Below are positions 392-63,122 of a stretch of 64,000 nt of DNA, one piece after another; position 1 is the first letter of the stretch; each line of letters opens with the position of its first letter. The stretch is from Minisyncoccota bacterium. GTDB taxonomy: Bacteria; Patescibacteriota; Minisyncoccia; UBA6257; 2-01-FULL-56-20. The notes beneath the pieces are model-generated. The model saw only the letters and a program-made list of their open reading frames with translations. It was not told the origin of the DNA and made no database searches. Both the position numbers and the translations under genes were made by a program. The stretch covers positions 1,990 through 65,989 of the forward strand of contig JANWIW010000030.1 of NCBI GenBank assembly GCA_025449695.1, in the 5' to 3' direction.

Positions 392-2197
392 TCATGCCAC
401 TTCGCTTTGATAGCAGGTTTCGCAGTAGATTATCTCGGGGCGCTCGGAAGCGTACGTCGTCTGGAAGGCACTCGGGCAGGGTCCGGCATCGTGGAAATGG
501 GCGCTGTTGTTCTTATAGCCGCCGCGCTCGGACCCACTGCCGGCGCATTGGCACTGCCGGGACCAAAGGCGCAGGGGGTTCCGCTGGACCAGCCGCTGGT
601 AATGGCGACAGCTGGGGCAGAGCCGCGGCACGGGAATATTCATACTCCGGTAGAACTGGAGTTCCGAGGATATGAGCCGGAAGGCCTTGGTGCATTGCTC
701 CGCGCAGGAGCCCTTGTGCGCGCATTCGATTGTGGCCTGCAAGATAGAATCGTCCGTTTCCGTGATGGTATCCGGTATCTCTTCCTGGAGCATCGTGACG
801 GCATAGTTTTTGCCTGCCGGGTCCTTCCACACATAACCTTTCACCCTGGCCTCGTCTGGGGTCAGGGTGGCGATCTCTTGGGCTATGGTTTCGTTGTACG
901 CGAATGGAGATAGCTCGGATGGGAAGAACTCGCCGTAGGGGTAGGATTTACCCTGCTTATCCATATAAGGCATTGCGTTCATGTGCTCGATGATCTTCGG
1001 GACCAGGGTCTCGTACTCCTCTTTTGAGTACTGCTTGTTCAGGATGCAGTATTGCTTGTTGCGCAGGCCGACGCAGCCGAACAAATAAGAAGACCCGTGT
1101 GAGTTGTAAGAATAATAGATATCATGCGAATCCAGGGTAAAGCGCGAATAGAATACCCTGCTGCCCGGATAGATGGTCGAGGAATCCACGGCCAGCTCCG
1201 TGTTCAACCCCACCCGGTCGCAGTCGTAGAGATCCTTGATATTGGAATACGCGAGCCAGGTGCGGGTGCAGTCCTCTCCCCCGCCGAAGATATCGAAGCA
1301 ATGCCTGCAGTTTTTGGCATTCTCCAGGTTGTCGCCCGTGGAATTCACCGAGTGGATGATGTGAGCGTAGCGGCGCGGATACCGCATCGCATGCTCCTCG
1401 AACCTTTTCTTGATTCCTTCCAGGGCCATGGAGCTGCCGGCGTTCAGCTTGGCGAGTTCCGCTTCGTATTCTTCCTTGGAATACTGGACGTTGAATATTT
1501 GGTAGGCGCCGTTCACCAGATTGGTGCAGCCGAAGCAGTCATGGCAGTTCCGGCAGTTGAAAAGAAAGGCGCTGTTGTAGCAACTTTCGCAGTACCGGCT
1601 CCATGAGAGCCGGGAGCAGGAAATGCAGTCCACCGTCTCGTAGGCATGCTCACTCTTCGATACCCAGTAGTTGTCCAGGCACTCCTTGGAATTGAAGATG
1701 TAGGTGGAGTAGGCAGTGTTCTCGTTAAAGTCGCCACCGAAGACCAGGTAGCAGTTCTTGTTGCCCTCGGTGATACTGCAATAATCGCTGTTCACCGGGT
1801 TGATGTTCAAGAGAGCGACATCCGGGACCTGCGTCCAAAGATCTTTCACCTGCCGGAGGAAAGGCCGCGCGAAATCCATCCCCATGCCATATTCCAAGGG
1901 GTCCCAGCTATCACTCCACCAGGTGGAGTGATCGAACACCCTTTGAGGATTATCCTCGGAAAAGATGGATATCAGCTCTTCACTGTGTCCGGGAGCGCCA
2001 CACTTTCGCTTATAGAGCGTCCGCTCGTTCCTAAAGCTCATCCGCCGCACGATGCGGCAGTCGAAGCACCAGCCCGGCGGCGGAACTTTCACCCGTTCAT
2101 AAAACGCGAAGTCTGCGGGTTCTAAAGTGAACTGGGCACCGCAGTTCGCGCACGCCCGGACTTGCCCTGAACCGGTCGAAGAGATTTCCGGCTGCAT
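392..2197 (-). CDS. Cys-rich multi-zinc-ribbon protein (unknown function; contains internal duplication)
   Basis: ORF 392..2233 (-). The probable start is the internal Met MQPEISSTGSGQVRACANCG at 2197, by alignment with the paralog start MTETGTRTCANCG. The protein has about 45 Cys in CxxC and CxxCxxCxxC clusters (CRNCHDCFGC, CVGLRNKQYC). Internal repeats ...NVQYSKEEYE and ...LNKQYSKEEYE are present. N- and C-terminal ribbons share the motif F(T/R)IxPxExxFYxxxxxPxPxxCPxCR. Confidence 0.7.
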   Translation of the reverse strand: MQPEISSTGSGQVRACANCGAQFTLEPADFAFYERVKVPPPGWCFDCRIVRRMSFRNERTLYKRKCGAPGHSEELISIFSEDNPQRVFDHSTWWSDSWDPLEYGMGMDFARPFLRQVKDLWTQVPDVALLNINPVNSDYCSITEGNKNCYLVFGGDFNENTAYSTYIFNSKECLDNYWVSKSEHAYETVDCISCSRLSWSRYCESCYNSAFLFNCRNCHDCFGCTNLVNGAYQIFNVQYSKEEYEAELAKLNAGSSMALEGIKKRFEEHAMRYPRRYAHIIHSVNSTGDNLENAKNCRHCFDIFGGGEDCTRTWLAYSNIKDLYDCDRVGLNTELAVDSSTIYPGSRVFYSRFTLDSHDIYYSYNSHGSSYLFGCVGLRNKQYCILNKQYSKEEYETLVPKIIEHMNAMPYMDKQGKSYPYGEFFPSELSPFAYNETIAQEIATLTPDEARVKGYVWKDPAGKNYAVTMLQEEIPDTITETDDSILQATIECAHKGSCAEQCTKAFRLISSELQFYRSMNIPVPRLCPSCRHYQRLVQRNPLRLWSRQCQCAGSGSERGGYKNNSAHFHDAGPCPSAFQTTYASERPEIIYCETCYQSEVA

Positions 2198-2240
2198 GAT
2201 TCTCATTAAACCTAAAAGCTTGCCTTGCAGCAAGCTTCCT

Positions 2241-20441: not shown

Positions 20442-20470
20442 AAGTAATAGTTAAGAGTGAGAAGGGTATT

Positions 20471-20546
20471 TGTCATTCCCGCCTCCGGGCGGGAATCCAC
20501 TCTTGCGCTGGATCCCGGGTAGCCTGACTGGGCTTCCGGGATGACA
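20471..20546. repeat. MITE/REP-like palindromic repeat copy D (TGTCATTCCCGCC ... CTTCCGGGATGACA)
   Basis: Termini plus the internal hairpin ATTCCCGCCTCCGGGCGGGAAT. Its 3' half is nearly identical to the 3' halves of copies G and H. Confidence 0.7.
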
Positions 20547-20558
20547 ATATCTTTCTGG

Positions 20559-23724: not shown

Positions 23725-23823
23725 TTATATAAAAAGGGACGTCCCGATCATTCCTATGAGGAGCGCGAGGACCACGATCGCCACGAAGATGCTCTTCCAA
23801 GCGGAGGTTTTATTCTTGGCCAT
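23725..23823 (-). CDS. candidate 32-aa hydrophobic micro-protein
   Basis: Minus strand: MAKNKTSAWKSIFVAIVVLALLIGMIGTSLFI, a single TM segment, between fmt and the tRNA. Too short for statistical support. Confidence 0.25.
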   Translation of the reverse strand: MAKNKTSAWKSIFVAIVVLALLIGMIGTSLFI

Positions 23824-23962
23824 GCCGGTCATTATACGGAAATCGGCGGGCCTCCTCAAGGAGGCTGAGGAATGATACCCTTTTGTCATCCTGCTGTGCC
23901 CTCCGTAGCTTTAGCGAAGGAGGGAGTCTGCAGGAGCGGGCAAAGGAGCTTGTCCGCTCACT

Positions 23963-24033
23963 TGGGGGATCGTCTAACGGTAGGACAGCGGCCTTTGGAG
24001 CCGTGAATCGGGGTTCGAATCCCTGTCCCCCAG
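23963..24033 (+). tRNA. tRNA-Gln (anticodon UUG)
   Basis: Folded by hand: acceptor UGGGGGA/UCCCCCA, D-arm GUCU-AACGGUA-GGAC, anticodon arm GCGGC-CUUUGGA-GCCGU (anticodon UUG), T-arm CGGGG-UUCGAAU-CCCUG, discriminator G. No encoded CCA. Confidence 0.8.
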
Positions 24034-24184
24034 CATTAGCTGTTGGCTTAGCGAGTACCCGAGCTTAGCAACCCTTATGCCCCGCCGAAGCTCGTCGGAG
24101 CGAAGGAGGGCCACCTTGAGCATAGTTCTGGGCGTCCGAGGAGGGTTGAAAGGTCCGATGTAATATATAATTAAGTTACTAGCT

Positions 24185-24562
24185 ATGGGAACATTTATCG
24201 AAACGAACGACACTCTGCAAATTACAAAAGAGCAAGGGTTCCCTGCCGAACTCGATTTGGATACTCACCTTAAAAATCCTTTCACGGTAAAAGATTTTGA
24301 AGGGAAAATCTTCGCTTTCAAAGACAAGCCCAATATAAGAGTTTATCAGCAACCGCCGGTCAGAAACTTTTTAGTAGAAAATAGAAATGACAAGTGGATA
24401 TATTGGGGCTTGATTCACATGTTGGAAGTTAACCATGACTATGGGGAAAAGGTGACTAGCGGCAAGTTTCGCATAATTTATATAAATACCCCAGAGGAAA
24501 TGAAAGTGGCGCATAGAATCACCGATCGACGTCCTGAAGCAGATTTCTTTGGGCATGACTAA
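24185..24562 (+). CDS. hypothetical protein (island)
   Basis: 125 aa in low-GC (about 40%) sequence immediately downstream of the tRNA. Confidence 0.55.
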   Translation: MGTFIETNDTLQITKEQGFPAELDLDTHLKNPFTVKDFEGKIFAFKDKPNIRVYQQPPVRNFLVENRNDKWIYWGLIHMLEVNHDYGEKVTSGKFRIIYINTPEEMKVAHRITDRRPEADFFGHD

Positions 24563-24580
24563 AGAGAAAAATGATCTGTT

Positions 24581-25255
24581 ATGCCAACAAACTTTTACGA
24601 TAGCGATGACTTTAAAAATATCGACTTCAAACCCTTAAATCCGTTGTATTATCCGACGGAGTACCAGCGCTACATCAAAGAAGAGACCGACCTCATTAAG
24701 CAACACATCAACGGCAAAACAGCACTTGAGGCTGGGGTCGGTATCGGCAGATTGATTCCCGATCTTGCCCCTATCGCAAAAGAGTTCGTCGGCATAGACA
24801 ACGCCGATCTCATGCTCCAGAATTCTAAAGAGCGAGCGGAAGGCTTCTCAAACGTCCGCCTTGTGAAAGGCGATCTTGAGAATCTTTCACACTTATTCCC
24901 GTCTAAATATTTCGATGTCAGCCTCTGTGTCTGGAATACTCTCGGCAACGTGAAAGATGAAGTCGTTGTGCTATCCGAACTCGCCAAAGTTACCAAGGAA
25001 AGAATTCTGGTTTCGGTACATCTAAAAGGCGCCTTAGAACAGAGGAAGAATTGGTATAAAACAGTTGGCCTTTCCATGGATGGAGTGGATGAGAAAAACG
25101 AGATTTTCTACAACACTAAGTCGGGACTCCGGTCGAAGGCGTATAGCCTTGAGGAGATCGAAGCTATTTCTAAAAACGCAGGGCTGGTCGTTGCAGATCA
25201 CAAGATCTTGGCTGGCGTTGTTCTTTGGGTTGAAATTGAAAGCTTGCCCAAGTGA
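24581..25255 (+). CDS. class I SAM-dependent methyltransferase
   Basis: Motif I LEAGVGIGRL and motif post-I/II; 224 aa. Confidence 0.75.
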   Translation: MPTNFYDSDDFKNIDFKPLNPLYYPTEYQRYIKEETDLIKQHINGKTALEAGVGIGRLIPDLAPIAKEFVGIDNADLMLQNSKERAEGFSNVRLVKGDLENLSHLFPSKYFDVSLCVWNTLGNVKDEVVVLSELAKVTKERILVSVHLKGALEQRKNWYKTVGLSMDGVDEKNEIFYNTKSGLRSKAYSLEEIEAISKNAGLVVADHKILAGVVLWVEIESLPK

Positions 25256-25328
25256 AACATGAGAACGAGCTATACTTATCCTATGAAGAAAAGAGTAAAA
25301 ACCCTCCGGCGACTCACTAAAATGACCC

Positions 25329-25399
25329 GTCCGAGGAGCCTCTTTCTGGTAAGATGAACTAACCCTCTGGGAGCCTTGCGGGGTAAGGGTTTTCAGAAG
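25329..25399 (+). promoter_or_regulatory. conserved 5' leader element, copy 1 (upstream of the SDR gene)
   Basis: GTCCGAGGAGCCTCTTTCTGGTAAG...CTCTGGGAGCCTTGCGGGGTAAGGGTTTTCAGAAG. A 70-nt paralogous element lies upstream of the AKR gene at 26949..27019 and shows covariation in a small hairpin (CTCTGGGAG vs CTTCGGGAG). Confidence 0.4.
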
Positions 25400-25448
25400 T
25401 ACGAGACCGGGAAGGCCAGCAGCAGCGAGATGGAGTAGAATCATATAT

Positions 25449-26135
25449 ATGAACTTGGAAAACAAGGTTGTTGTTATAACGGGAGGCAGCGAGGGTTTCG
25501 GTAAATCTCTCGCGAGAATGTTTTCCCACGAAAAATCCCGCCTAATAATTGCGGGCCATGAGCAGGCTAAGCTGGAGGATGCAGCAAAAGAGTTGGGAGC
25601 AGATTATCTACTGATTGACGTTACCCGTCCACAAGAGCTCAATAATTTGGCGGCATACGTTTCTGAAAAATATGGAACGATAGATATTTGGATAAACAAT
25701 GCCGGGATTCAGATTGCGCCCAGCATGGTGGAAAACGTAGATATTGAAAAACTACACCACTTATTCGAGGTTAATTTTTTCGGCTATTTTTACGGCTGTC
25801 AAAGCGCAATTCGGTGCATGAAAAAGCAGTCTCACGGATTAATAGTCAACGTGAACTCCACCGCAGGACTTGATGGCAAATCTGGACTTTCCGCTTATTC
25901 TTCTTCGAAATTCGCAACTAAGGGATTGACCGAATCTCTGCGGAAAGAGGTCGTCGATACACACATTCAAGTCTTTGCTGTATATCCCGGAGGAATGCAG
26001 ACGAACATCTACAAAGAAAAGTATCCGGACGACCTGAAAAACTATATGCTAACGGATGATGTTGCGAAAAAGGTGGTAGATAATCTCAAGATAGATCATC
26101 CCGAAAAGGACCTTATCCTTAAGCGGTCGGCGTGA
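25449..26135 (+). CDS. SDR-family oxidoreductase
   Basis: TGGSEGFGKSLA Rossmann motif and the YxxxK catalytic site (YSSSKFATKGL). Confidence 0.85.
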   Translation: MNLENKVVVITGGSEGFGKSLARMFSHEKSRLIIAGHEQAKLEDAAKELGADYLLIDVTRPQELNNLAAYVSEKYGTIDIWINNAGIQIAPSMVENVDIEKLHHLFEVNFFGYFYGCQSAIRCMKKQSHGLIVNVNSTAGLDGKSGLSAYSSSKFATKGLTESLRKEVVDTHIQVFAVYPGGMQTNIYKEKYPDDLKNYMLTDDVAKKVVDNLKIDHPEKDLILKRSA

Positions 26136-26165
26136 ATAAGGTTGGGCTAGATCCAAGAATCGTTC

Positions 26166-26300
26166 CGGTCACGTCCCACCTGCCCAGTCGATTACAGAAT
26201 CTAACCCGCTTTGCGGGTAGGATTCTGTTGAGTCCTGCGCTGCGCCCTTCGAAGCTTTACGATACCCCGCGAAGCTCGAAGAGCAAAGTGGGGCTACCTT
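26166..26300. repeat. island intergenic repeat, family X, copy 1 (contains the TCCCACCTGCCCAG motif and a strong hairpin at 26194..26228)
   Basis: About 85% identical over about 100 nt to 27920..28030. The hairpin is ACAGAATCTAACCCGC-TTTG-GCGGGTAGGATTCTGT. It sits between convergent genes, so it likely acts as a terminator. Confidence 0.6.
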
Positions 26301-26340
26301 GTGCATAGTATCGAGTGACCGAGACGCGTCAGTTCTCCCC

Positions 26341-26832
26341 TCAGCCCCGCCGCGCCGCCTCAATAGCAGCAACGTCGATTTTTGTCATTGTCATCATCGC
26401 TTCAAAGGCACGCTTTGCTTCTGCGCCGCCAACCGCAAGTGCGTCGATCAGCGTACGCGGCGTGATCTGCCATGATACTCCCCAGCGGTCTTTGCACCAG
26501 CCACATTGGCTTTCCTGACCTCCATTCCCGACGATCGCGTTCCAATAGCGATCTGTTTCTTCCTGATTGTCCGTCGCGATCTGAAAGGAAAATGCCTCAC
26601 TTTGTTTGAACGCTGGTCCACCGTTCAGACCAATACAAGGGATTCCAAAGACCGTGAACTCTACCGTGAGCACGTCGCCTTCCTTGCCATCCGGAAAATC
26701 ACTGGGCGCATGATTAACAGCCGTTACTTTACTATCGGGAAAAGTAGCGGCGTAAAAGTTTGCTGCGTTTTCTGCATCCTTGTCGAACCAGAGGCAAATT
26801 GTATTTTTTGGTTGCATGTTATTTTGTATCAT
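26341..26832 (-). CDS. VOC-family protein (PhnB/YjdN-like glyoxalase fold)
   Basis: N-terminal ICLWFDKDAENAANFYAATFPDSKV is typical of PhnB-like VOC proteins. Confidence 0.75.
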   Translation of the reverse strand: MIQNNMQPKNTICLWFDKDAENAANFYAATFPDSKVTAVNHAPSDFPDGKEGDVLTVEFTVFGIPCIGLNGGPAFKQSEAFSFQIATDNQEETDRYWNAIVGNGGQESQCGWCKDRWGVSWQITPRTLIDALAVGGAEAKRAFEAMMTMTKIDVAAIEAARRG

Positions 26833-26948
26833 TATTTTACCGCGCTTCGGGAGATTTGCAAACTAAGTAAAAGTATCTCATTGATCCCCGGCCGGGACGG
26901 GTCAACTCTCCCCTGCCGGTAGCGAGAGTATACCGCCATTTAGCATCC

Positions 26949-27019
26949 GTCCGAGGAACCTAGTTCTGGTAAACTTACAGAATCCTTCGGGAGACTTACG
27001 GGGTAATGATTTTACAAAA
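26949..27019 (+). promoter_or_regulatory. conserved 5' leader element, copy 2 (upstream of the aldo/keto reductase gene)
   Basis: GTCCGAGGAACCTAGTTCTGGTAAAC...CTTCGGGAGACTTACGGGGTAATGATTTTACAAAA. See copy 1. Confidence 0.4.
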
Positions 27020-27049
27020 TCCGCGATCGAGAAAGCCACCACTATAACC

Positions 27050-27913
27050 ATGAACCAGAAGATTCTAAAAAGCGGATTCTATCTTCCTGAAATTGGCTTA
27101 GGAACCGGAGGTGATCCCTCAAAAGCTGTCGGTTATGAAGAGCGGAAAAAAGCGCTTCAGATCGCACTTGATATGGGATACCGGCATATTGATTGCGCAG
27201 CGACATACTCCAATGGAGGGGTAGAAAAGTTCGTTGGGGAGGCCATTAAGCGCATTGATCGTTCGGAATTAATCCTTTCAACAAAAGTTTCTCCGCTCAA
27301 TCTTGCTTATGATGACCTAATTGAATCAGTGCAATTAAGCTTGGGTCGTTTAGGAGCAAGTTACGTCGATTTGTTGTACATCCATGCTCCTAATATGGAT
27401 ATTCCCTTATCCGAAACCATGCGAGCTATGGATACCGTGATAGATAATGGGATGGCAAAGCACCTGGCCGTGAGTAATTTCAACGTCGACCTTCTCATCA
27501 AAGCACAGTCGTTTACCAAGAATAAAATTGTCGCGAATCAGATCGAGTATAATCTTGCGACTCGTGAAAAAAGTCATTGCGAGGGGTGTGACAGTATGGA
27601 ATCGAAAATAATTCCATTCTGCCAGGAAAATGACATTCTCGTGGTCGCGTATCGACCCGTTGATCGAGGCTCTATCCTTGAACCCAACCAATTACTCGAT
27701 ACCTTGTCAAAAAAGTATGGGAAAACGAGAGCACAAATCGCCTTGAATTGGCTGATTTCACAAGACAACATCGTTACCATTCCACGCTCGGATGCATTCG
27801 CCCATCTTAGGGAAAACCTTGACGCAAGTGGTTGGTATTTAGACAAAGCAGACGTCGAACTCCTTAGAAGGGAGTATCCGCTTAGAGAGATTAAGTCCTA
27901 CCGTTATTATTAA
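27050..27913 (+). CDS. aldo/keto reductase
   Basis: 287 aa with the AKR signatures (DCAATYSNGG..., LYIHAPN) in a TIM-barrel. Confidence 0.85.
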   Translation: MNQKILKSGFYLPEIGLGTGGDPSKAVGYEERKKALQIALDMGYRHIDCAATYSNGGVEKFVGEAIKRIDRSELILSTKVSPLNLAYDDLIESVQLSLGRLGASYVDLLYIHAPNMDIPLSETMRAMDTVIDNGMAKHLAVSNFNVDLLIKAQSFTKNKIVANQIEYNLATREKSHCEGCDSMESKIIPFCQENDILVVAYRPVDRGSILEPNQLLDTLSKKYGKTRAQIALNWLISQDNIVTIPRSDAFAHLRENLDASGWYLDKADVELLRREYPLREIKSYRYY

Positions 27914-27919
27914 GCTCAC

Positions 27920-28060
27920 GAATCGCGTCCCACCTGCTCAGCCGATTACAGAATCTTACCCGCACAGCGGATTAGATTCTGTTGAGTCCTGCGCTGCGCC
28001 CTTCGAAGCTTTACGGCGTCCAGCGTAGCTTGAGCGGAATTGAAGCGAAGAAGGGAAGCC
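27920..28060. repeat. island intergenic repeat, family X, copy 2
   Basis: GCGTCCCACCTGCTCAGCCGATTACAGAATCTTACCCGC...GATTCTGTTGAGTCCTGCGCTGCGCCCTTCGAAGCTTTACG, nearly identical to copy 1. Confidence 0.6.
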
Positions 28061-28086
28061 TTGGCGAAGTGGGTCAGCAAAGAGAA

Positions 28087-28674
28087 TTAGCTGATCCCAA
28101 CGAGATAATATCTCCTTGTTCCCTCATTGGTCACCTGAACAGTAAATCCCTGTTCTGAAAATAGTCTCGATAAATTATCTGGGGAATAAAATACACTTCC
28201 CATTTTTAGGAACTTTTCCATGCGGACTATCACCCTCCCTCCAAAAGTTAAAGGGTTAAATTCCTCTACAATTACTGCACCTCCATACTTCAGAACCCTC
28301 TTGATTTCCTGAGCACATTGAACTTGATTCGGCAAATGATGGAACACATCTACCATAATAATTTTATCTATTGAGTTGTCGGCAAAAGGTAACTTTTCGG
28401 CAGTTCCGATCAGGCAGGCAATTCCATTGTGCTTGCGGCATTGCTCGATCATTTTCTCTGATGGATCGACCACCGTAACTTTCTTTACCTTCCCTGTTAA
28501 AAACTTGGCTACTCTGCCCGTACCGCCTCCTACATCAACAACTTCATCTTCAACGCTAAACTCTACGACAGAAGTAAGTTTCCTAAAAGTAGCTTTTGCT
28601 CCGATATGAACCTTCTCATATATCGGCGCAAGAACGTCAAAATAGTTGGGCACACCCCTAATGATATACTTCAA
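28087..28674 (-). CDS. class I SAM-dependent methyltransferase
   Basis: Motif I VVDVGGGTGRVAKFL and Methyltransf_11-like DVFHHL. Confidence 0.75.
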   Translation of the reverse strand: MKYIIRGVPNYFDVLAPIYEKVHIGAKATFRKLTSVVEFSVEDEVVDVGGGTGRVAKFLTGKVKKVTVVDPSEKMIEQCRKHNGIACLIGTAEKLPFADNSIDKIIMVDVFHHLPNQVQCAQEIKRVLKYGGAVIVEEFNPLTFGGRVIVRMEKFLKMGSVFYSPDNLSRLFSEQGFTVQVTNEGTRRYYLVGIS

Positions 28675-28843
28675 CGATCACGGTTCCAATCGCATCCCAC
28701 CTGCCCGGCATTAGTGAAAGTAAGTCGGGTTTCCGTTCTTTTGCGGGCTCCGCAAGCAAGGATTTGAATAATAATCCTCCCCTTACGAACAGGAAGGACC
28801 TCGACCGAAGTCGAGGCCCCACATGCTTTGCCGCTGTGGATTG

Positions 28844-29929
28844 TCATGCTGCGATGAGCGCGGACGGGTTCGGGGCGGGAAGCTCCTTGCCCGTGATGAT
28901 CGCGATCTCTCCCAGCACCCTCTGGAGGTAGCCGGTTGGCAGAACGGTTTGCGCGGCGGAACCGTCCACGAGAGAGAGGCTTGTCGCGAGCAACAAGTCG
29001 CCTTGGCGCACGCCATTCAGCTTGAACGAACGTCGGCCGCCGACACTCGGGTTCTGCAGGTCAACCACGACTTCATTGAGAGCCGGCGTCGGCCGCGGCG
29101 CGTCGGCCGTGAATCGGTAGCTCGCGATAGCTCTCTCCACGTGGGTGTAGGGCTCGCGGTAACCGTACTGGTCGTGGCCGAACCACTTCTCGACTGCGTC
29201 CGCCACGAACCGCCGGACCTGCCCCTGGTTCGAGATGACGACGCGCAGCATCTCTCCGGTCTCTTTGCTTCGGAACCAGATGAGACCGCCGACCTGGGTG
29301 AAGTCCGAGGCCGAGAAGCTTCGCCTTCCATACTCGTCGTAGTCAGTACGGGTGCTGTAGACGAAATCTTTTTCGACGGGGACCCAGCCGCCGTCCGCCA
29401 CAGGTTCCGCGACGCCTTGCTCGATAGAGAAGGGGTCCTCAACAGAAAAGACGCCATTTATGAGCCGCTCCATCCAGTCCCAGTCCTGGGAGTTGTCCGC
29501 GAGGCACTTGTTGCGGCGAGCGATGAAGCTGGCAACGCCGAGCGGCGTGAAAGAGAAGATCGCCCAGAACAGGCAAAGTTCAATGGCGAAAAAGACGCGC
29601 TCCGGAGCAGGGACCCACGCCCCGCCCTCACGTTCGCCATAGCCGCGATCGCCGTAAACATAACTGCCGTTGTGAGCGAGGAAGTGAGCTTCATCGATAC
29701 CCACGAGATCGCCCCGGACACCGCGATTGGGATCGGCCAAATTGGCACGAGCTGTTTCCGCCGTGGGGTACGAAATCGGATACAGCCTCTCGTACAACAC
29801 GTCGTCGAGGCGGTAGTGAAGGATGCTCGCGCCGAGAATGCAGAGGAAAACGAGCAGGGCGAGCAGGGCGCCGTTTTGGAACATCTCACTGGCAGCCTTG
29901 GGGGAAAGAGGGATTTTGGCTTGTTTCAT
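28844..29929 (-). CDS. hypothetical membrane-anchored protein
   Basis: 361 aa with an N-terminal TM (ALLALLVFLCILGASIL) and a large extracytoplasmic domain. The antisense ORF 28823..30004 is rejected as R/D-rich GC noise. Confidence 0.6.
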   Translation of the reverse strand: MKQAKIPLSPKAASEMFQNGALLALLVFLCILGASILHYRLDDVLYERLYPISYPTAETARANLADPNRGVRGDLVGIDEAHFLAHNGSYVYGDRGYGEREGGAWVPAPERVFFAIELCLFWAIFSFTPLGVASFIARRNKCLADNSQDWDWMERLINGVFSVEDPFSIEQGVAEPVADGGWVPVEKDFVYSTRTDYDEYGRRSFSASDFTQVGGLIWFRSKETGEMLRVVISNQGQVRRFVADAVEKWFGHDQYGYREPYTHVERAIASYRFTADAPRPTPALNEVVVDLQNPSVGGRRSFKLNGVRQGDLLLATSLSLVDGSAAQTVLPTGYLQRVLGEIAIITGKELPAPNPSALIAA

Positions 29930-30205
29930 CAGTCACTCCTTTCGATTTTTGCAGCTCAGAAACCACTGGTTGAGGGAAATGGATTGTCGGAGATCTCGTG
30001 CTAATTTAACAAGTTTCCATAAAATTGTCAATGGCACGGACATTAAAATCCCCGGCGGCGCAGAGATGTTGGCTTTAGAAAGTCAATCAAGTTTGCAAAT
30101 TATTGAATCGAGGATCCTGATCGGAGTTATAGGACTGAATTTCAGAAAGCATCTCCAATAGCATCCCACCTGCCCAGCAAGTGGTTTCCGTGCCATAATT
30201 GAGTA

Positions 30206-30766
30206 ATGAAAAAATTAGCGCCTGCAATAATAACAGTAATCGTAATTGCTGCAGGAGTTTACTACCTCAACTCAACTCCTCACCAGGAATCTGCATCGCA
30301 AGCTCCGCCGGCAAACCAGAGATCTTTCGACGGAAGGAATGCTACCTTCTCGATAAATGACAATGCGATCACGCTTGTCGATGGAGCAGCGGAAAGCCCT
30401 GCCGCTCCCGGTTCCGCGTCGAAAGTCGTCACCCGTTATTTCGGCAATGAGGCGACCGGAGATCTGAATGGCGACGGCTCGCAGGATGTGGCGTTTCTCG
30501 TGACTCAGGACGGCGGAGGCAGCGGGCTCTTCTATTATGCCGTAGTCGCCCTTAAGACAGCGGATGGATACAGAACCACGAACGCCTTCTTCATCGGCGA
30601 CAGGATCTCCCCGCAGTCAACTTACATCCCGATGAATTCCATGGAGCTCCACGTGAACTATGCGGAACGCAAGCCGGGCGAGCCGATGACCGCGCAGCCT
30701 TCTGTCGGAGCGGTCAAGCTGCTTAAGGTCACCTCTCATGGAGTGTTGGAAGGCCTCATGAAATAA
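30206..30766 (+). CDS. hypothetical secreted/signal-anchored protein
   Basis: 186 aa with an N-terminal signal anchor and a DLNGDGSQD motif. Confidence 0.6.
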   Translation: MKKLAPAIITVIVIAAGVYYLNSTPHQESASQAPPANQRSFDGRNATFSINDNAITLVDGAAESPAAPGSASKVVTRYFGNEATGDLNGDGSQDVAFLVTQDGGGSGLFYYAVVALKTADGYRTTNAFFIGDRISPQSTYIPMNSMELHVNYAERKPGEPMTAQPSVGAVKLLKVTSHGVLEGLMK

Positions 30767-40572: not shown

Positions 40573-40737
40573 TCTTCCCGTTTGTCATCCCGGCTCCCTC
40601 CTTCGCTCCTTCTGCGCTTAGCCTTCGAAGGACACGCAAAAGCTCCAACTTCGCCATAGGCCTACGGCTGGACACGTCCTCCTTCGCTATAGGCTACGGC
40701 TGGACACGTACGGAAGGGCATCGCAAGGCCGGGATAA
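40573..40737. repeat. MITE/REP-like repeat copy F with an internal 33-bp tandem duplication
   Basis: Starts TTGTCATCCCGGC and ends GCCGGGATAACA (degenerate). Inside is CTTCGCCATAGGCCTACGGCTGGACACGTC repeated twice. Confidence 0.55.
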
Positions 40738-40833
40738 CAAAATAAACGGGGCTACAGCGCTAGAAAGACGGGTGGACCGCTGATCTCCGGCTGGCAAGTG
40801 CGCGGGAGGAGAGATTGGCTACACCGCAGCGGT

Positions 40834-48566: not shown

Positions 48567-49286
48567 CTAGAACGGGGCGAACCGGACGGCGGCGAAGAGC
48601 ACGGCCACCCCAAGCACAGTCATGAAAGTCGTCCACATGGTCGGATGCCTGTGATGGCTCTCCGGGATCAGGTCGGATGCGCCGATATAAAGGAAGAACC
48701 CGCAAAAGAGGGCCAGAATGGGGCCGAGATACTGCTCCGGGACCTGGAAGAAAAGCGTGGCGAATGCCCCCAAGGCAGGCGCCAACGCGCCCACCAGGAG
48801 CCAGTGGAACGCACGGCGGCTCTCTCCTTTATTCTTCAGCACCATGTTCACCATGTTAATGCCGTCCGAAAAGTGATGCACCAGCACGGCGGTTGCGACC
48901 ACCGCGCCCACGGCGGCGGACACCTGGAAGGCCAGGCCTATGGCCAATCCGTCCAGGAACCTATGCAAGGAAATGCTGCTGGCGCCGATGGTGCCCCGGT
49001 GGTGATGCGAGCTTTCGTCTTCATCGTCATGAAAATGGAGGGTAATGTAGCGATCCACCATAAGATAAATAAGGAAACCTAACGCCATAATGGAAGTTAT
49101 CGTCGCCGGCTCGAAGAACGCACTGCCGAGTTCTATGGCCTCGGGCAGTAAGTCGAAGAAGGCAACGCCGATAACGACTCCGGCGCTGAATCCCATGATA
49201 AGGTGCAGCTTGTCCTTGAAGCGCAGGGCAAGAAGGCCACCAAGCAGGGTGAAGACGACCGTGGCAATGCCAATGATCACTACCAT
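48567..49286 (-). CDS. zupT: ZIP-family zinc transporter
   Basis: 8 TM helices with metal-binding motifs HHFSDGINMV and HNxxEG-like. Confidence 0.85.
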   Translation of the reverse strand: MVVIIGIATVVFTLLGGLLALRFKDKLHLIMGFSAGVVIGVAFFDLLPEAIELGSAFFEPATITSIMALGFLIYLMVDRYITLHFHDDEDESSHHHRGTIGASSISLHRFLDGLAIGLAFQVSAAVGAVVATAVLVHHFSDGINMVNMVLKNKGESRRAFHWLLVGALAPALGAFATLFFQVPEQYLGPILALFCGFFLYIGASDLIPESHHRHPTMWTTFMTVLGVAVLFAAVRFAPF

Positions 49287-52219: not shown

Positions 52220-52232
52220 GGAGATCGTGCCT

Positions 52233-52416
52233 GTCATCCCGGCCTTGCCGCCTTTTGGCACGGCTTCGCCAAGGGCGAGGCTTCCGTGAGAGGCGAGGCT
52301 CGCTTGAAGCAGCGCCTCCGGCGGGATACGAGACCCAAGCTTGTCATTCCGGCCTTGAGCCGGGATCCAGTATTTTCCTGGATCCCGGATAGCCCCGCTG
52401 GGCTTCCGGGATGACA
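52233..52416. repeat. MITE/REP-like repeat copy G (tandem composite of two elements)
   Basis: CTGTCATCCCGGCC...CAAGCT then TGTCATTCCGGCC...GGGCTTCCGGGATGACA. It is about 95% identical over 184 bp to copy H, which lies about 960 bp downstream. Confidence 0.85.
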
Positions 52417-52553
52417 AGGCCATTTCCAATCACGATTCAGTCATTAAGTATCTCATGGAAATTTCCTTGAAAGCGAGGAACGGGAATCCAGAGGCTCTCA
52501 AATCAAACTGCCCGACGCGAAGGCCGGGCAGCTGACTAATGCGTGGTTCGAAG

Positions 52554-53027: not shown

Positions 53028-53192
53028 TTCTGCCTCCAGAATGCCCCCTCGGGCTTTTAAGTCGTGATTGCTTTTTCTACCAAGCACACGCTTGGCTTCT
53101 CTTTGCATTATACAAATTTAGACTATATTTGTCAAACTTTAGCCTACCCTCCCGGCTTTGGCGCGCTACTTGCGTTGTAATCTGAAAGCATT

Positions 53193-53376
53193 GTCATCCC
53201 GGCCTTACCGCCTTTTGGCACGGCTTCGCCAAGGGCGAGGCTTCCGTGAGAGGCAAGGCTCTCTAGAAGCAGCGCCTCCGGCGGGATACGAGACCCAAGC
53301 TTGTCATTCAGGACTTGAGCCGGGATCCAGTATTTTCCTGGATCCCGGATAGCCCCGCTGGGCTTCCGGGATGACA
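53193..53376. repeat. MITE/REP-like repeat copy H
   Basis: Near-identical direct repeat of copy G. Confidence 0.85.
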
Positions 53377-53411
53377 AGGCTATCTCCGATCACCGTTACC
53401 TAGTTATTCTC

Positions 53412-57076: not shown

Positions 57077-57823
57077 CTATTGCACGGTCAGGGTGCGGGT
57101 GATCAATATCGCCCCGCCCTGGGTCACGCGCAGGGTGTAGATACCGCTCTGTACCGTTACCGTCCAGGGGAACGAATTGCTCGCCGTCTGCCCGAGATAA
57201 GTGACGAGGCCATTTGCGCCGACAAGCTCTATGTTTGCACTACCCATACTGCTATTGAAGGGCGACCAAAGGATCGTGTAGAAGATGCCCCTCGTCACCA
57301 CGCTCACGTCCAGGTTGTTGCTATTCAAGACCTGGATCTGAGTGACCGGTTGGACCGGGTAAGCGCTGCCGCCGCAGTGGGAAGAGTACTGTCCGGAACC
57401 ATACTGGTTGTACGGGTACTGATTGGAGGGATACTGGTCATATTGATACTGGTTGTAACCGTACCCGTAGCAGCACTGATAGCTGTACTGCTGATAAGGA
57501 TATTGGTTGTATTGGTACTGGTTGTTGTACTGGTACTGGTTATACTGCGGGCAGTTGTTGTACTGGTAATTATTATTGTTTGTGTTCGAACACTGCCAAG
57601 ACTGCGTAGAGACGCCGTTCAGGTAACAGTAAGGGGCGCTCGTGGTTTGCTGTTGACCGGGAACGACCTGCTGCAGGTAGGCCGAGTTCTGGTTCACGTA
57701 TTGGATCGTCTGATTGGCGAGCGCGACCGCCTGGACCTGAGTAGGCCCCGGAATAGTGGGGTTATTGCTTACTGCGGCGAGCAGCGAATAAGCCAATTGG
57801 AGCAAAACGGCAGCGAAGGTCAT
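57077..57823 (-). CDS. secreted protein with Q/N/Y-rich low-complexity (prion-like) region and C-terminal beta domain
   Basis: Signal peptide, then repeats NNNNYQYNNCPQYNQYQYNNQYQYNQYPYQQYSYQCCYGYGYNQYQYDQYPSNQYPYNQY, then a roughly 100-aa C-terminal domain. The region has locally lower GC. Confidence 0.7.
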   Translation of the reverse strand: MTFAAVLLQLAYSLLAAVSNNPTIPGPTQVQAVALANQTIQYVNQNSAYLQQVVPGQQQTTSAPYCYLNGVSTQSWQCSNTNNNNYQYNNCPQYNQYQYNNQYQYNQYPYQQYSYQCCYGYGYNQYQYDQYPSNQYPYNQYGSGQYSSHCGGSAYPVQPVTQIQVLNSNNLDVSVVTRGIFYTILWSPFNSSMGSANIELVGANGLVTYLGQTASNSFPWTVTVQSGIYTLRVTQGGAILITRTLTVQ

Positions 57824-57858
57824 GAATACCTAGAGCCTGCCGCAATCTCCTCAGTTTG

Positions 57859-58341
57859 TCAATGAAGTTTAGATGAAGCTCCATTCTTTCCTGAAGGACG
57901 GGCCTTTTTCAGGCTTTGTCTCCATAGCAAGAAAAGACCGATGAAGTTGAGGCCGATAAGGAGAGCGAAAGGCGTGATGGAAAAACCGTCCAGGTCCAAT
58001 ACGCGGCCGCCTATCATGAAGGGCGCTTTGGAATAGAACCAGCCATAGCTGAGGGAGCCGAAGATACCGTACCCGATGAAGAGGATCCCCAGGCAGGTCA
58101 GTATAACCCCCGTCCAATCGAAGCGACGCAGCCTGAAGCCCCAACTCCTAAAGGAGCCGGATGGTCGCGCCTTCGCGACCGGCATGGCAAGCCGGACTAC
58201 AGGCGGAGGCGCGACAGCCTGGACAGGCGGCGAGACCGGCGCGGCGTCTCCCAAACGGTACGCATCGCGGGGCGGATGATTGTATCCGCCGCCAACGAGG
58301 AGGGGTTCCGAAGGCGCGGTTTTTGCGTGATTGCTATCCAT
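57859..58341 (-). CDS. hypothetical membrane protein with Pro-rich N-terminus
   Basis: ORF runs to 58410; the start was set at MDSNHAKT. 3 TM helices. Confidence 0.5.
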   Translation of the reverse strand: MDSNHAKTAPSEPLLVGGGYNHPPRDAYRLGDAAPVSPPVQAVAPPPVVRLAMPVAKARPSGSFRSWGFRLRRFDWTGVILTCLGILFIGYGIFGSLSYGWFYSKAPFMIGGRVLDLDGFSITPFALLIGLNFIGLFLLWRQSLKKARPSGKNGASSKLH

Positions 58342-61252: not shown

Positions 61253-63088
61253 TCATAGGAACTCTTCTTTATAACATTGTTCGCAGTAAATGGCCTCCGG
61301 CGCCCCCGGCGGGTAGGTGGTCTCAAAACGGTTCGCGCACGGCGCATCCCCGTGAGAATGCGTAACAGTGTTCACGTAGGCATCTCCGCCGTTCTTTCCC
61401 CGGCACATGCAAGCTCGGGAATAGAGCCGGAACTCGTTTACCCATTGCAGCCGCTCGCGGTGCCGGCAGTTCGGGCAAAGCCGCGGCAGGGCGATGTGCA
61501 TGGTCCGGTAGAACTGCAGCTCTTCAGGGGTTATGCGGAAAGCGGTCGTGCATTCGTGGTCGCAGGTCCCTTTCCCCTTCGTCCCAACTTCGCTCAAACT
61601 GCGATGGGCACGCAAGGCCTCGGGAGACGCGGCGTGGGCGCAGCCGATCACCTGGTCCACGATGGAGTTCTCGACGTCCGCGATGTGGTCGGGCAGGTCT
61701 CCGGGATGCATGGAGATCTCATAAGCTCTATCCGGCGGATCGCGCCATGCCAGGCCTTCGGCGAGGACTTGTTCCCTTGTCTTCGGGTACCACTTAAGGG
61801 CGATAGTCTCGTTGTAGGCGTATGCGGATAGTTCCATAGGAAAGAACTCGCCGAACCCGTAGGTCCGGCCTTTCTTGTCCACGTACGGCATCTCGCCCAT
61901 GTGGGCCACGATCTTCTCCCGCAAGGCGTGGTACTCCTTCTCGGAATACTGCTTGTTCAGGATACAGTGCTTCTTGTTGCGAATGGTGATGCAACCGAAT
62001 AGGTTTACCGAGTTAGGGGAGAAATCGCAGTACATGATGTCCCTGGATCCCCGGCTGCCCGCCGTAAAAGCGCACCGCTGGGCCTGGGTGACCCCATAGA
62101 CCTCATAGAGCAGCTCGGAGGTGTCGCCGCCGCCTGTTACGTCATAACTGTCCTTAAGATTCAGTCCTCCAACATAGATGTACTTGCAGTTCTGCACGCC
62201 GTCCAGAGTGGAAAAGCACATCTGGCAGTCCTTGGTGGAGCGTATGACATCCCCTTTCACGTTCTGGCTGTTCAGGACATGGGCGTAGCGCCGGGGCGTG
62301 GCCAGGCAAAGGGAGCGGAACTTCTCCTTGGCCTCTTCCAGGCGCTTGTAGCTGCCCAAGTCCCAATAGGCCATCTCCTTGGCATACTCTTCTTTGGAGA
62401 GCTGTTCGTTGAACAGGCGGTATTTCTGTTTGCGCATGTTCACGCAACCGAAGCAATCCGAACACCCGACGCAATTGAAGAGGAACGACGAATCCAGACA
62501 GTCGTCCGAGAAATAGGCGTAACGCGTGCGGTATAGCCGGTCGGAGTGGACGGCCTCGTAGGCATGGTCGGAATTGTCGGTCACATAAGCGTCGAAGGAA
62601 TGCCGCGAGAAGAGCAGCGCGTCCGCGTATTGGGAGTCCTCCGAAAAGTAGCTCCAGAAGGTCAGGTAGCAGTTCTTGCAACTGCGGCATGCATGGGTGA
62701 ACTCGCTGTTCACGCAGTTGATACTCGTAAGGCCCGGCCGCGGCACCGCCTCCATGAGGTCGCGGTACTGCGCGAAAAAAGGACGGGAGAAATCGTAGTC
62801 CCGGCCGTAGTCCAGGGCATCCCACTTGTCCGACCACCAGCACTCGCGGCAATAGACCGTGAACGGCCCGCCTGGCGCGTGGATGCTGATCATGGACCGG
62901 CCGCACAGCCTGCAGGTGTCCCGGTAGAGGGTACGGTCCTCCCGCCAGGCCGAACGGCGCATGTCCCGGCAGGGCGGGCACCAGGTCGGGGCAGGCACGC
63001 CGATACTCTTATAGAACCCGATATCGGCGGGTTCGATCGTGAAGTCTTGCCCGCAGTTCGCGCATGTCCGCGTCCCGGTCTCCGTCAT
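61253..63088 (-). CDS. Cys-rich multi-zinc-ribbon protein paralog
   Basis: The start was set at MTETGTRTCANCGQDFTIEPADIGFYKSIGVPAPTWCPPCR. It has the same architecture and internal repeats (..NEQLSKEEYAKE / ..LNKQYSEKEYHAL, NCVGCSDCFGC) as 392..2197. Antisense ORFs 62154..62981 and 62546..63451 are rejected. Confidence 0.7.
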   Translation of the reverse strand: MTETGTRTCANCGQDFTIEPADIGFYKSIGVPAPTWCPPCRDMRRSAWREDRTLYRDTCRLCGRSMISIHAPGGPFTVYCRECWWSDKWDALDYGRDYDFSRPFFAQYRDLMEAVPRPGLTSINCVNSEFTHACRSCKNCYLTFWSYFSEDSQYADALLFSRHSFDAYVTDNSDHAYEAVHSDRLYRTRYAYFSDDCLDSSFLFNCVGCSDCFGCVNMRKQKYRLFNEQLSKEEYAKEMAYWDLGSYKRLEEAKEKFRSLCLATPRRYAHVLNSQNVKGDVIRSTKDCQMCFSTLDGVQNCKYIYVGGLNLKDSYDVTGGGDTSELLYEVYGVTQAQRCAFTAGSRGSRDIMYCDFSPNSVNLFGCITIRNKKHCILNKQYSEKEYHALREKIVAHMGEMPYVDKKGRTYGFGEFFPMELSAYAYNETIALKWYPKTREQVLAEGLAWRDPPDRAYEISMHPGDLPDHIADVENSIVDQVIGCAHAASPEALRAHRSLSEVGTKGKGTCDHECTTAFRITPEELQFYRTMHIALPRLCPNCRHRERLQWVNEFRLYSRACMCRGKNGGDAYVNTVTHSHGDAPCANRFETTYPPGAPEAIYCEQCYKEEFL

Positions 63089-63122
63089 GGTCTGATTGTA
63101 GCAAGTTGCTATACTTTGCCCT

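What the first reader, a model, noticed from the sequence alone, without database searches (positions are those of the whole stretch)
25329..27019. Paralogous ~70-nt conserved leader elements upstream of two oxidoreductase genes (candidate cis-regulatory RNA)
Elements at 25329..25399 and 26949..27019 lie 30-50 nt upstream of the SDR and AKR start codons. They share GTCCGAGGA-CCT--TTCTGGTAA...GGGAG-CTTRCGGGGTAAKGRTTTTMCARAA. A small hairpin shows a compensatory change (CCC-TCTG-GGA vs TCC-TTCG-GGA). This fits a structured 5' UTR or a shared regulator site controlling both detox-type oxidoreductases. A partial copy (TTCTGGGCGTCCGAGGAGG) precedes gene 24185.
Basis: seen in the sequence. Interest (0 to 1): 0.55.

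Follow-up and report, generated by a model that had tools for sequence, protein, structure and literature searches.

The report
Repeated promoter-like spacer, not a riboswitch
The two similar ~95-base stretches upstream of the two oxidoreductase genes are real, but they look like copies of an ordinary repeated spacer carrying a promoter box, lying between horizontally acquired genes next to a tRNA gene, not like a folded regulatory RNA.

Summary
The repeat is real. Positions 25327-25421 and 26947-27041 are 73% identical over 95 nt without gaps, and a short third copy lies at 24133-24143.

The structured-RNA reading is not supported:
- No Rfam family matches.
- Neither copy folds better than shuffled sequence, and the aligned pair gives z = -0.55.
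- Mismatches are spread evenly.
- The element is absent upstream of 79 SDR and 9 AKR homologue loci, and two metagenome pattern scans found nothing.

The context explains the repeat better. The host is a 58-60% GC genome, most likely Patescibacteria, with a 45% GC island of six acquired genes directly after tRNA-Gln. The "leader" is the gene-proximal part of a repeated, higher-GC intergenic module. The distal part is a 111-nt, 85% identical "trailer" with a conserved hairpin, found after both oxidoreductase genes.

The most conserved leader block, TTCTGGTAA, is the best island match to this lineage's extended -10 promoter motif (12.0 and 12.7 bits, ranks 13 and 10 of 127,980 positions).

Best reading (about 0.5): a terminator-plus-promoter spacer copied between gene cassettes. 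Interest is low to moderate.

The parts
25327..25421 (+). Leader copy A (a weaker homologous extension starts at about 25300)
   Evidence: Gap-free 95-nt repeat, 73% identical to copy B. GC 57%, against 44% for the SDR gene.
26947..27041 (+). Leader copy B (a weaker homologous extension starts at about 26905)
   Evidence: It ends 8 nt before the AKR ATG.
25345..25355 (+). Extended -10 promoter-like box in leader A (TCTGGTAAGAT); transcription start predicted near 25362
   Evidence: 12.0 bits with a matrix built from 18 leaderless promoters of this lineage; rank 13 of 127,980 window positions. The start position is inferred, not mapped.
26965..26975 (+). Extended -10 promoter-like box in leader B (TCTGGTAAACT); transcription start predicted near 26982
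   Evidence: 12.7 bits, rank 10 of 127,980; best + strand hit in the island.
24075..24146 (+). Third, truncated module copy after tRNA-Gln: distal trailer sequence running into the first 11 nt of the leader (CGTCCGAGGAG, 24133-24143)
   Evidence: nhmmer with the trailer profile, E = 2e-6; blastn 73% over 60 nt; exact 10-mer.
25436..25441 (+). Proximal -10 box of the SDR gene (TAGAAT, then 7 nt, then ATG), outside the conserved leader
   Evidence: Same layout as the host's leaderless promoters; 8.7 bits.
25449..26135 (+). SDR gene (228 aa), low-GC cassette
   Evidence: Pfam adh_short, E = 7e-51. The nearest relatives after the self-match are 60-68% identical, and most named ones are Patescibacteria MAGs.
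26162..26340 (+). Trailer 1: TCCCACCTGCCCAG motif, imperfect 16-bp hairpin (26194-26228), REP-like segment
   Evidence: 111 nt 85% identical to trailer 2, with a 41-nt perfect run (permutation P = 0.003). RNAalifold z = -2.6 and -3.4 on the two strands.
26341..26832 (-). PhnB/VOC-family gene inserted between trailer 1 and leader B, flanked by 27-nt direct repeats (26315-26341 and 26888-26914, 74% identical)
   Evidence: Pfam 3-dmu-9_3-mt. 73-75% DNA identity to VOC genes on Rhizobium, Azospirillum and Sinorhizobium plasmids. Flanking repeats.
27050..27913 (+). AKR gene (287 aa), low-GC cassette
   Evidence: Pfam Aldo_ket_red. Homologues are 65-76% identical. The TATAGT box seen upstream of the L082 and L083 homologues is replaced here by the end of the leader.
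27916..28086 (+). Trailer 2 (hairpin at 27948-27982)
23963..24034 (+). tRNA-Gln(UUG), left border of the low-GC island
   Evidence: The def-fmt-tRNA-Gln order is conserved in a relative (L088) that carries different genes downstream.

Best explanation
The two 'leaders' are paralogous copies of the gene-proximal part of one repeated intergenic module. The full module reads: TCCCACCTGCCCAG motif, hairpin, REP-like segment, then leader. It separates horizontally acquired, low-GC gene cassettes in an island downstream of tRNA-Gln, in a high-GC genome that is most likely Patescibacteria.

The copies are similar because the module was copied as the array grew, not because an RNA fold is under selection.

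If the leader has a function, it acts on DNA as a promoter. Its best-conserved block, TTCTGGTAA-N3-T, is a lineage-typical extended -10 element. That would start transcription near 25362 and 26982, giving unstructured leaders of about 87 nt (SDR) and 68 nt (AKR). The hairpin part of the module would end or insulate transcription of the gene upstream.

Shown: the repeat, the module architecture, the GC mosaic, the promoter-motif match, and the lack of any fold signal. Inferred: promoter activity, the transcription start positions, and how the module was copied.
For: - The repeat is real and limited to the island.
- It belongs to a larger module. Both genes are also followed by a 111-nt, 85% identical trailer. 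The spacer after tRNA-Gln joins trailer sequence directly to the leader's first 11 nt.
- GC mosaic: leader A is 57% and the trailers 55-57%, while the cassettes with their short flanks are 29-46%. The host runs at 58-60%.
- Host genes and relatives L086-L088 carry TGnTAnAAT 6-9 nt before the ATG. PMC6028130 describes this layout as leaderless transcription.
- A matrix built from 18 such sites puts its two best + strand island hits inside the leader's most conserved block (12.7 and 12.0 bits; ranks 10 and 13 of 127,980). Between the two copies T-12, A-11, T-7 and the TG are kept, while two of the middle positions differ.
- The AKR gene lacks the -10 box that its L082 and L083 homologues carry, so it needs an upstream promoter.
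- Other AKR-containing gene arrays have their own repeated spacer modules. L089 has 5 copies of a hairpin, T-run and TGTATACT module. L090 has 3 copies of a 46-nt element.
- There is no fold signal in the leader, and its mismatches are evenly spread (P = 0.54).
Against: - There are only two full copies, so selection on the promoter box cannot be shown. Five key positions surviving at 73% identity has a chance probability of about 0.2.
- The box lies 93 and 74 nt upstream of the ATGs, whereas the clearest host promoters sit 6-9 nt upstream.
- No Shine-Dalgarno sequence is visible.
- The SDR gene has its own proximal -10 box, so the leader's promoter may be redundant or dead.
- Leader B is 47% GC, lower than leader A.
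- The copying mechanism is unknown. No recombinase gene was found among the 30 reading frames scanned.
Confidence: 0.5

Rival explanations
1. Neutral relic. The leader copies are decaying remnants of a duplicated intergenic stretch with no present function. The promoter-like box is either chance or the fossil of a former host promoter.
For: Mismatches are evenly spread (longest identical run 11, permutation P = 0.54). Leader identity (73%) is lower than trailer identity (85%; Fisher P = 0.04). There are only 2-3 copies, all in one island. The SDR gene has its own proximal -10 box. No homologue locus carries the element.
Against: The promoter-motif match ranks 10th and 13th of 127,980 positions and falls in the best-conserved block. 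The AKR gene has no other recognisable promoter.
Confidence: 0.25
2. Recombination scaffold. The module, and in particular the leader's invariant 5' block (C)CGTCCGAGGA, is the target or crossover site of a cassette-insertion system that is not an integron.
For: - The two-gene cassette 24147-25299 lies between two exact copies of CGTCCGAGGAG.
- The PhnB/VOC cassette lies between 27-nt direct repeats whose start, G-N-CCG-R-G-R-N-G, resembles that block.
- This degenerate motif occurs 5 times in the island, all on the + strand and all in non-coding modules. The whole window has 38 matches against 20.5 expected.
- The island abuts a tRNA gene. One copy of the TCCCACCTGC motif resembles the tRNA-Gln 3' end plus its flank (p about 0.009).
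Against: - The motif was defined after seeing the data, and several of its copies are paralogues of each other.
- No recombinase was found.
- The repeats do not sit exactly at the GC junctions.
- No canonical attC core pairs are present.
- No related array was found elsewhere.
Confidence: 0.12
3. Structured cis-regulatory RNA (riboswitch or attenuator) in the 5' UTR of both oxidoreductase genes.
For: Position and orientation fit: the element is on the coding strand, directly upstream of two genes of related function. A small hairpin followed by TTTT (CCTTGC-GGG-GTAAGG-GTTTT in copy A) lies downstream of the predicted start (read).
Against: - No Rfam match at E <= 10.
- Fold z-scores are -0.84 and +0.98 for the single sequences, -0.55 and -0.24 for the aligned pair, and +1.95 for the predicted UTR of copy B.
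- The consensus structure is unstable to the choice of ends.
- The small hairpin keeps only 4 pairs in copy B.
- The claimed compensatory change is one-sided.
- The element is absent upstream of 79 SDR and 9 AKR homologue loci.
Confidence: 0.06
4. Shared operator. The invariant 11-mer CCGTCCGAGGA, at about -35 to -25 relative to the predicted transcription start, binds a transcription factor that co-regulates the SDR and AKR genes and gene 24185.
For: The 11-mer is the longest invariant run, and the 10-mer CGTCCGAGGA is exact in all three copies. It lies where an activator or repressor would contact a promoter that has no -35 match.
Against: A run of 11 is expected by chance at 73% identity (P = 0.54). 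There is no dyad symmetry or direct-repeat structure. No regulator gene lies in the island. In the third copy the spacing to the nearest -10 box differs (22 nt against 11 nt).
Confidence: 0.07

Closest known systems
Dispersed intergenic repeats that carry expression signals (Correia elements of Neisseria; REP/BIME and ERIC of enterobacteria; BOX and RUP of pneumococci). This comparison rests on my own knowledge and was not tested against those sequences.
   Same: These are non-coding, repeated spacers between unrelated genes. They contain hairpins, and some contribute promoters or terminators to neighbouring genes. The trailer's REP-like segment does recur elsewhere in the host genome (40584-40740, 61574-61635, 23889-23913).
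   Different: The leader itself has only 2-3 copies, all in one island. It has no terminal inverted repeats or target-site duplication and no stable hairpin, so it is not shown to be a mobile or dispersed element.
Integron cassette arrays (attC sites; clusters of attC sites lacking an integrase)
   Same: A row of unrelated, horizontally acquired accessory genes (methyltransferases, SDR, PhnB/VOC, AKR) separated by mutually similar non-coding elements. The gene content is typical of cassettes. Homologues sit in long rows of small genes in other genomes (L090).
   Different: No RYYYAAC...GTTRRRY core pairs on either strand. The repeated spacer is about 300 nt, not 55-140 nt. The leader does not fold, and the trailer hairpin is only 35 nt. 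No integrase was found. Genes lie in both orientations.
Extended -10 (TGn) sigma-70 promoters and leaderless transcription (GeneMarkS-2 'group C' genomes, PMC6028130)
   Same: TGGTAAGAT and TGGTAAACT match TGnTAnnnT, and they match the lineage's own boxes (TGGTAAAAT before the CtpA-like protease gene, TGGTAGAAT before gene 48567-49286).
   Different: The clearest host examples sit 6-9 nt from the ATG and so give leaderless mRNA. The leader boxes are 93 and 74 nt away, which would give leadered mRNA. Activity has not been tested.
tRNA-linked genomic islands built by successive integrations (tandem accretion, as in cis-mobilizable elements of streptococci). This comparison rests on my own knowledge.
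   Same: The island starts directly after a tRNA gene. A relative carries different cargo at the same tRNA, plus a 17-nt duplicate of the tRNA 3' end (L088). A repeated motif marks the segment borders.
   Different: There is no integrase. The resemblance of the repeated motif to the tRNA 3' end is weak, significant for only one of four copies.

Membership tests
Known cis-regulatory RNA / riboswitch families (Rfam 15) | Match to a curated covariance model | tested here: not met
   The only gathering-score match in the window is the tRNA. At E <= 10 over 23800-30400 nothing overlaps either leader.
Structured cis-regulatory RNA (any kind, including new) | Conserved secondary structure that is more stable than chance and supported by compensatory changes | tested here: not met
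   Single-sequence z = -0.84 and +0.98. RNAalifold against column shuffles: z = -0.55 (+ strand), +1.19 (- strand), -0.24 (UTR part). Only 1-2 double changes appear, and they fall in structures that differ with the chosen ends. Power is low with two sequences.
Structured cis-regulatory RNA (any kind, including new) | Recurs upstream of orthologous or functionally linked genes in other genomes | tested here: not met
   nhmmer and blastn found nothing in 79 SDR loci or in 9 AKR loci, L082-L085 and L089-L093. A metagenome pattern scan gave 0 hits. Two viral-collection hits were chance matches inside an RdRp gene.
Structured cis-regulatory RNA (any kind, including new) | Lies within the transcript, downstream of the transcription start | not testable with these tools
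   No transcript data are available. Sequence predicts one start inside the element (about 25362 and 26982) and, for the SDR gene, another downstream of it.
Integron attC site / cassette array | R'' (RYYYAAC) and R' (GTTRRRY) cores 47-167 nt apart (core start to core end) | tested here: not met
   There are 0 such pairs on either strand in 23900-30400. The only ATCTAAC/GTTGAGT pair is 28 nt apart, inside the trailer hairpin.
Integron attC site / cassette array | Integron integrase nearby | tested here: not met
   No Phage_integrase or recombinase domain in the 30 reading frames scanned, including all those flanking the island. Arrays without an integrase are known, so this alone does not decide the matter.
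REP / MITE-type dispersed repeat | Many dispersed copies; terminal inverted repeats or a stable palindrome | tested here: not met
   For the leader: 2 full copies and 1 fragment, all within 3 kb, and no stable fold. The trailer's REP-like segment does recur elsewhere in the window.
Extended -10 sigma-70 promoter | TGnTAnnnT motif matching the organism's own promoters | tested here: met
   Matrix scores of 12.0 and 12.7 bits, ranks 13 and 10 of 127,980 positions. Regex hits at 25347 and 26967.
Extended -10 sigma-70 promoter | Initiates transcription | not testable with these tools
   This needs 5'-end mapping or a reporter assay.
tRNA-targeted integrative island | Direct repeat of the tRNA 3' end at the island or segment borders | tested here: inconclusive
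   Copy 3 of the TCCCACCTGC motif aligns with the tRNA-Gln 3' end plus flank (TCGCATCCCACCTGCCCGGCATTAG against TCGAATCCCTGTCCCCCAGCATTAG; 17 of 2000 shuffles score as well). The other three copies are not significant.

The most novel reading that the evidence does not exclude
The roughly 300-nt trailer-leader modules are the recombination substrates of a cassette-capture system that is not an integron, working next to tRNA genes in Patescibacteria. Single genes from low-GC relatives, and even from Proteobacteria, would be inserted at a GTCCGAGGAG-like core. Each insertion would regenerate a module that supplies a terminator and a promoter to the captured gene.
Probability: 0.1. Interest if true: 0.65.

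Novelty: new member of a known kind. Interest (0 to 1): 0.28.

Why it matters
If the best reading holds, this removes a false riboswitch candidate. It also shows how a reduced-genome, probably leaderless-transcribing bacterium may express foreign genes: they sit between copies of a resident spacer that carries a host-type promoter box and a hairpin.

Rows of accessory genes separated by repeated spacers also appear in other AKR-containing loci (L089, L090). That hints at a common but undescribed way of organising acquired genes in these genomes. It would matter more if the modules proved to be recombination sites, but the present evidence for that is weak.

Tried and rejected
- **Rfam.** Searched at gathering score and at E <= 10. 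Only the tRNA matched.
- **Coding leader or N-terminal extension.** The two leaders are in the same register modulo 3, but the two genes are in different frames. All + strand frames carry stops across the element. The one frame that is open in both copies over 22 codons gives only 6 of 22 identical residues. Rejected.
- **Conserved element of the SDR or AKR gene family.** Absent from 79 and 9 homologue loci respectively.
- **Public collections.**
  - The leader pattern found 0 hits in metagenomes.
  - It found 2 chance hits inside a mitovirus-like RdRp gene in viral contigs.
  - Trailer patterns found 0 hits in viral contigs and metagenomes.
  - BLAST of the island against plasmids matched only the VOC gene, and against phages matched nothing.
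- **Source record.** Exact-protein look-ups could not retrieve it. The island proteins found in the collection are singletons at 90% identity, from a 70,240-bp NCBI contig.
- **Integron attC.** No core pairs. The short spacers of the related array L083 do not fold.
- **Inverted or tandem gene duplication as the source of the repeats.** The two methyltransferases are unrelated.
- **tRNA-like nature of the leader.** No tRNA-model or ARAGORN hit.
- **Comparable modules in the nearest relative's island (L088).** None found.
- **Sigma-54 reading of the TCCCACCTGC motif on the minus strand.** Two of the four copies would point antisense into gene ends, so this was dropped.
Full report
**1. The observation**

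The region was read directly. A repeat search gives a gap-free direct repeat, 25327-25421 against 26947-27041, 95 nt at 73% identity (family D7). A sensitive self-comparison of the island gives E = 7e-14. A two-sequence nhmmer profile finds only these two copies in the 64 kb.

Both copies lie on the + strand, upstream of an SDR gene (25449-26135) and an AKR gene (27050-27913) (Pfam). A weaker, gapped extension of about 25 nt lies 5' of it.

CCC-TCTG-GGA has a C.A outer pair, and the other copy changes only the 5' base.

The partial copy before gene 24185 exists (exact CGTCCGAGGA at 24133-24142).

**2. The RNA hypothesis**

- No Rfam family matches either element, at gathering score or at E <= 10.
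- Neither copy folds better than its shuffles (z = -0.84 and +0.98), and the two minimum-energy structures differ.
- RNAalifold gives about -12 kcal/mol. The structure changes with the ends chosen, and only one or two pairs change on both sides.
- Against 500-1000 column shuffles, the alignment energy is unremarkable: z = -0.55 (+ strand), +1.19 (- strand), and -0.24 for the part downstream of the predicted start.
- The predicted UTR of copy B is less structured than random (z = +1.95).
- The same test detects structure in the neighbouring trailer repeat (z = -2.6 and -3.4), so the method does work here.
- Mismatches between the two leaders are evenly spread (longest identical run 11; permutation P = 0.54).

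**3. Comparative evidence**

After the self-match, the nearest relatives of the SDR protein are 60-68% identical. Most of those that carry a name are from Patescibacteria MAGs. I fetched 79 homologue loci from species-representative genomes. Neither nhmmer nor short-word blastn finds the leader or the trailer in them.

AKR homologues at 65-76% identity were fetched with their flanks. None carries the leader.

- An exact-pattern scan for the leader's best block found nothing in metagenome contigs.
- The same block gave two chance matches inside an RdRp gene in viral contigs.
- Trailer patterns found nothing.

The element is therefore specific to this genome and is not a feature of the SDR or AKR families.

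**4. Context**

The window is 58-60% GC, but 24040 to about 28700 is roughly 45% GC. Six genes there have GC3 of 0.40-0.54, against 0.65-0.88 for most host genes. They are a 125-aa protein of unknown function, a methyltransferase, the SDR, a PhnB/VOC protein on the minus strand, the AKR, and a second, unrelated methyltransferase on the minus strand.

The island begins directly after tRNA-Gln(UUG) at 23963-24034.

The host's fmt protein is most similar (52-63%) to proteins that sources name as Paceibacterota or Minisyncoccia. The gene order GtrA-L27-L9-CtpA-def-fmt is kept in three relatives. One relative, L088, has the same tRNA-Gln (95% identical) followed by quite different genes and a 17-nt duplicate of the tRNA 3' end.

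So this is a variable, tRNA-linked island in a high-GC genome that is most likely Patescibacteria. The VOC gene is 73-75% identical at the DNA level to genes on Rhizobium, Azospirillum and Sinorhizobium plasmids. The cargo therefore has mixed origins.

**5. The leader is part of a larger repeated module**

- Both oxidoreductase genes are followed by a second repeat, 26169-26279 against 27923-28033: 111 nt, 85% identical, with a 41-nt perfect run (P = 0.003).
- This trailer starts with TCCCACCTGCYC. That motif occurs four times on the + strand between 26174 and 30175, against 0.76 expected.
- The trailer then contains a 16-bp imperfect hairpin and a REP-like segment that also occurs in ordinary host spacers.
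- The spacer after the tRNA (24075-24145) is homologous to the distal trailer and runs straight into the leader's first 11 nt. Trailer and leader are therefore neighbouring parts of one intergenic unit.
- The VOC gene sits between trailer 1 and leader B, flanked by 27-nt direct repeats (26315-26341 and 26888-26914, 74% identical).
- GC content alternates. Leader A is 57% and the trailers 55-57%. The cassettes with their short AT-rich flanks are 29-46%. Leader B is 47%.

**6. What the leader may do**

Host genes, and the same genes in relatives, carry TGnTAnAAT 6-9 nt before the ATG. Examples are TGGTAAAAT before the CtpA-like protease gene and TGGTAGAAT, TGCCATAAT and TGGTACAAT elsewhere. PMC6028130 describes this layout as leaderless transcription.

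A matrix built from 18 such sites places its two best + strand hits in the island inside the leader's most conserved block:
- TCTGGTAAACT at 26965-26975, 12.7 bits, rank 10 of 127,980 positions;
- TCTGGTAAGAT at 25345-25355, 12.0 bits, rank 13.

Between the two copies TG, T-12, A-11 and T-7 are kept, while two of the middle positions differ. That pattern is what a working -10 box would tolerate.

Transcription starts would fall near 25362 and 26982, giving unstructured 87-nt and 68-nt leaders.

The AKR gene has lost the TATAGT box that its L082 and L083 homologues carry; the leader's end replaces it. It therefore needs such an upstream promoter. The SDR gene keeps a proximal TAGAAT, then 7 nt, then ATG (8.7 bits), which lies downstream of the conserved element.

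**7. Parallels**

Two other AKR-containing rows of accessory genes have their own repeated spacers:
- L089 has five copies (67-89% identical) of a hairpin, T-run and TGTATACT module upstream of different genes.
- L090 has three copies of a 46-nt element.

Repeated spacers carrying expression signals therefore recur in such arrays, each with its own sequence.

**8. Rivals**

- **Neutral relic (0.25).** It fits the even decay and the redundancy at the SDR gene. It does not explain the quality and placement of the promoter match.
- **Recombination-site reading (0.12).** It rests on direct repeats flanking two cassettes and on a degenerate motif defined after the fact. No recombinase was found, and canonical attC cores are absent.
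- **Shared operator (0.07) and structured RNA (0.06).** Neither has positive evidence.

**9. Verdict**

The repeat is real. The riboswitch-type interpretation is not supported. The most likely identity is the promoter-bearing half of a repeated terminator-promoter spacer between acquired cassettes.

This is a new example of a known kind of thing, a repeated intergenic element carrying expression signals. Interest is low to moderate. The open question is how the module was copied.

Noticed in passing
26162-26340 and 27916-28086: A second repeat follows both oxidoreductase genes: 111 nt, 85% identical, with a 41-nt perfect run (P = 0.003). It has a conserved imperfect 16-bp hairpin (26194-26228 and 27948-27982). 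Each arm is closer to the reverse complement of the other copy's arm than to its own partner.
   Followed up: partly
26174, 27928, 28695, 30164 (+ strand): The 12-mer TCCCACCTGCYC occurs four times in 4 kb (0.76 expected), always at gene borders. Copy 3, with its flank, resembles the tRNA-Gln 3' end plus its downstream flank (p about 0.009). A related GGTTCCAAC-N-TCG-N-AC motif follows the stop codons of AKR and ABM genes in two unrelated low-GC contigs (L082 at 910-930; L083 at 1325-1345 and 1680-1700).
   Followed up: partly
26341-26832 (- strand): The PhnB/VOC-family gene is 73-75% identical at the DNA level to VOC genes on Rhizobium, Sinorhizobium, Ensifer and Azospirillum plasmids. That suggests transfer from Proteobacteria into a genome that is probably Patescibacteria. 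The gene is flanked by 27-nt direct repeats.
   Followed up: partly
23897-23925, 40584-40740, 61574-61635: A REP-like family of the form CCTCC-GTAGC-TTT-AGCGAAGG-AGGG lies in host spacers, clustered at 40.6 kb. Similar TTCGCTAAAGCTTCG units appear in other Patescibacteria loci (L028, L089).
   Followed up: partly
20470-20547, 52341-52417, 53319-53377, 2240-2321: Another palindromic spacer family (TTGTCATTCC...GGGATGACAA). A 202-nt repeat, 96% identical, joins 52232-52433 and 53192-53393.
   Followed up: no
whole window; L086-L088: Many host genes have TGnTAnAAT 6-9 nt before the ATG and no Shine-Dalgarno sequence. The box before the CtpA-like protease gene is conserved in three relatives. This lineage therefore probably relies heavily on leaderless transcription.
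   Followed up: partly
L017 2140-3045 (Methylomirabilota MAG contig): A low-GC SDR gene, 64% identical to the window's SDR, lies directly after a tRNA-like 3' fragment in a high-GC contig. The pair is bracketed by a roughly 22-nt imperfect direct repeat (TTAGCGCCGCCTTAACAACGCTCG and TAACGCTGCTTCACAACGCTCG). Five of the 79 SDR loci have a tRNA gene within 150 nt upstream on the same strand.
   Followed up: partly
L089 2062-8030; L090 3898-6600: Other AKR-containing gene rows have their own repeated spacer modules. L089 has 5 copies of a hairpin, T-run and TGTATACT module. L090 has 3 copies of CAGGTTCTAATCTCCTTCATCAGCCGGAGC.
   Followed up: partly
880-1081 vs 61798-61999; 590-664 vs 61448-61522: The large minus-strand genes at the two ends of the window (392-2233 and 61253-63325) share stretches that are 70-77% identical, so they are probably paralogues.
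   Followed up: no
28844-29929 (-) / 28823-30004 (+): A host-GC reading frame, open on both strands and with no Pfam match, lies between copies 3 and 4 of the TCCCACCTGC motif. Which strand codes is unresolved.
   Followed up: no
57386-57584: Irregular 15- and 18-nt periodic repeats (TACTGGTTGTA...) lie inside the reading frame 57080-57865. This is probably a low-complexity repeat protein.
   Followed up: no
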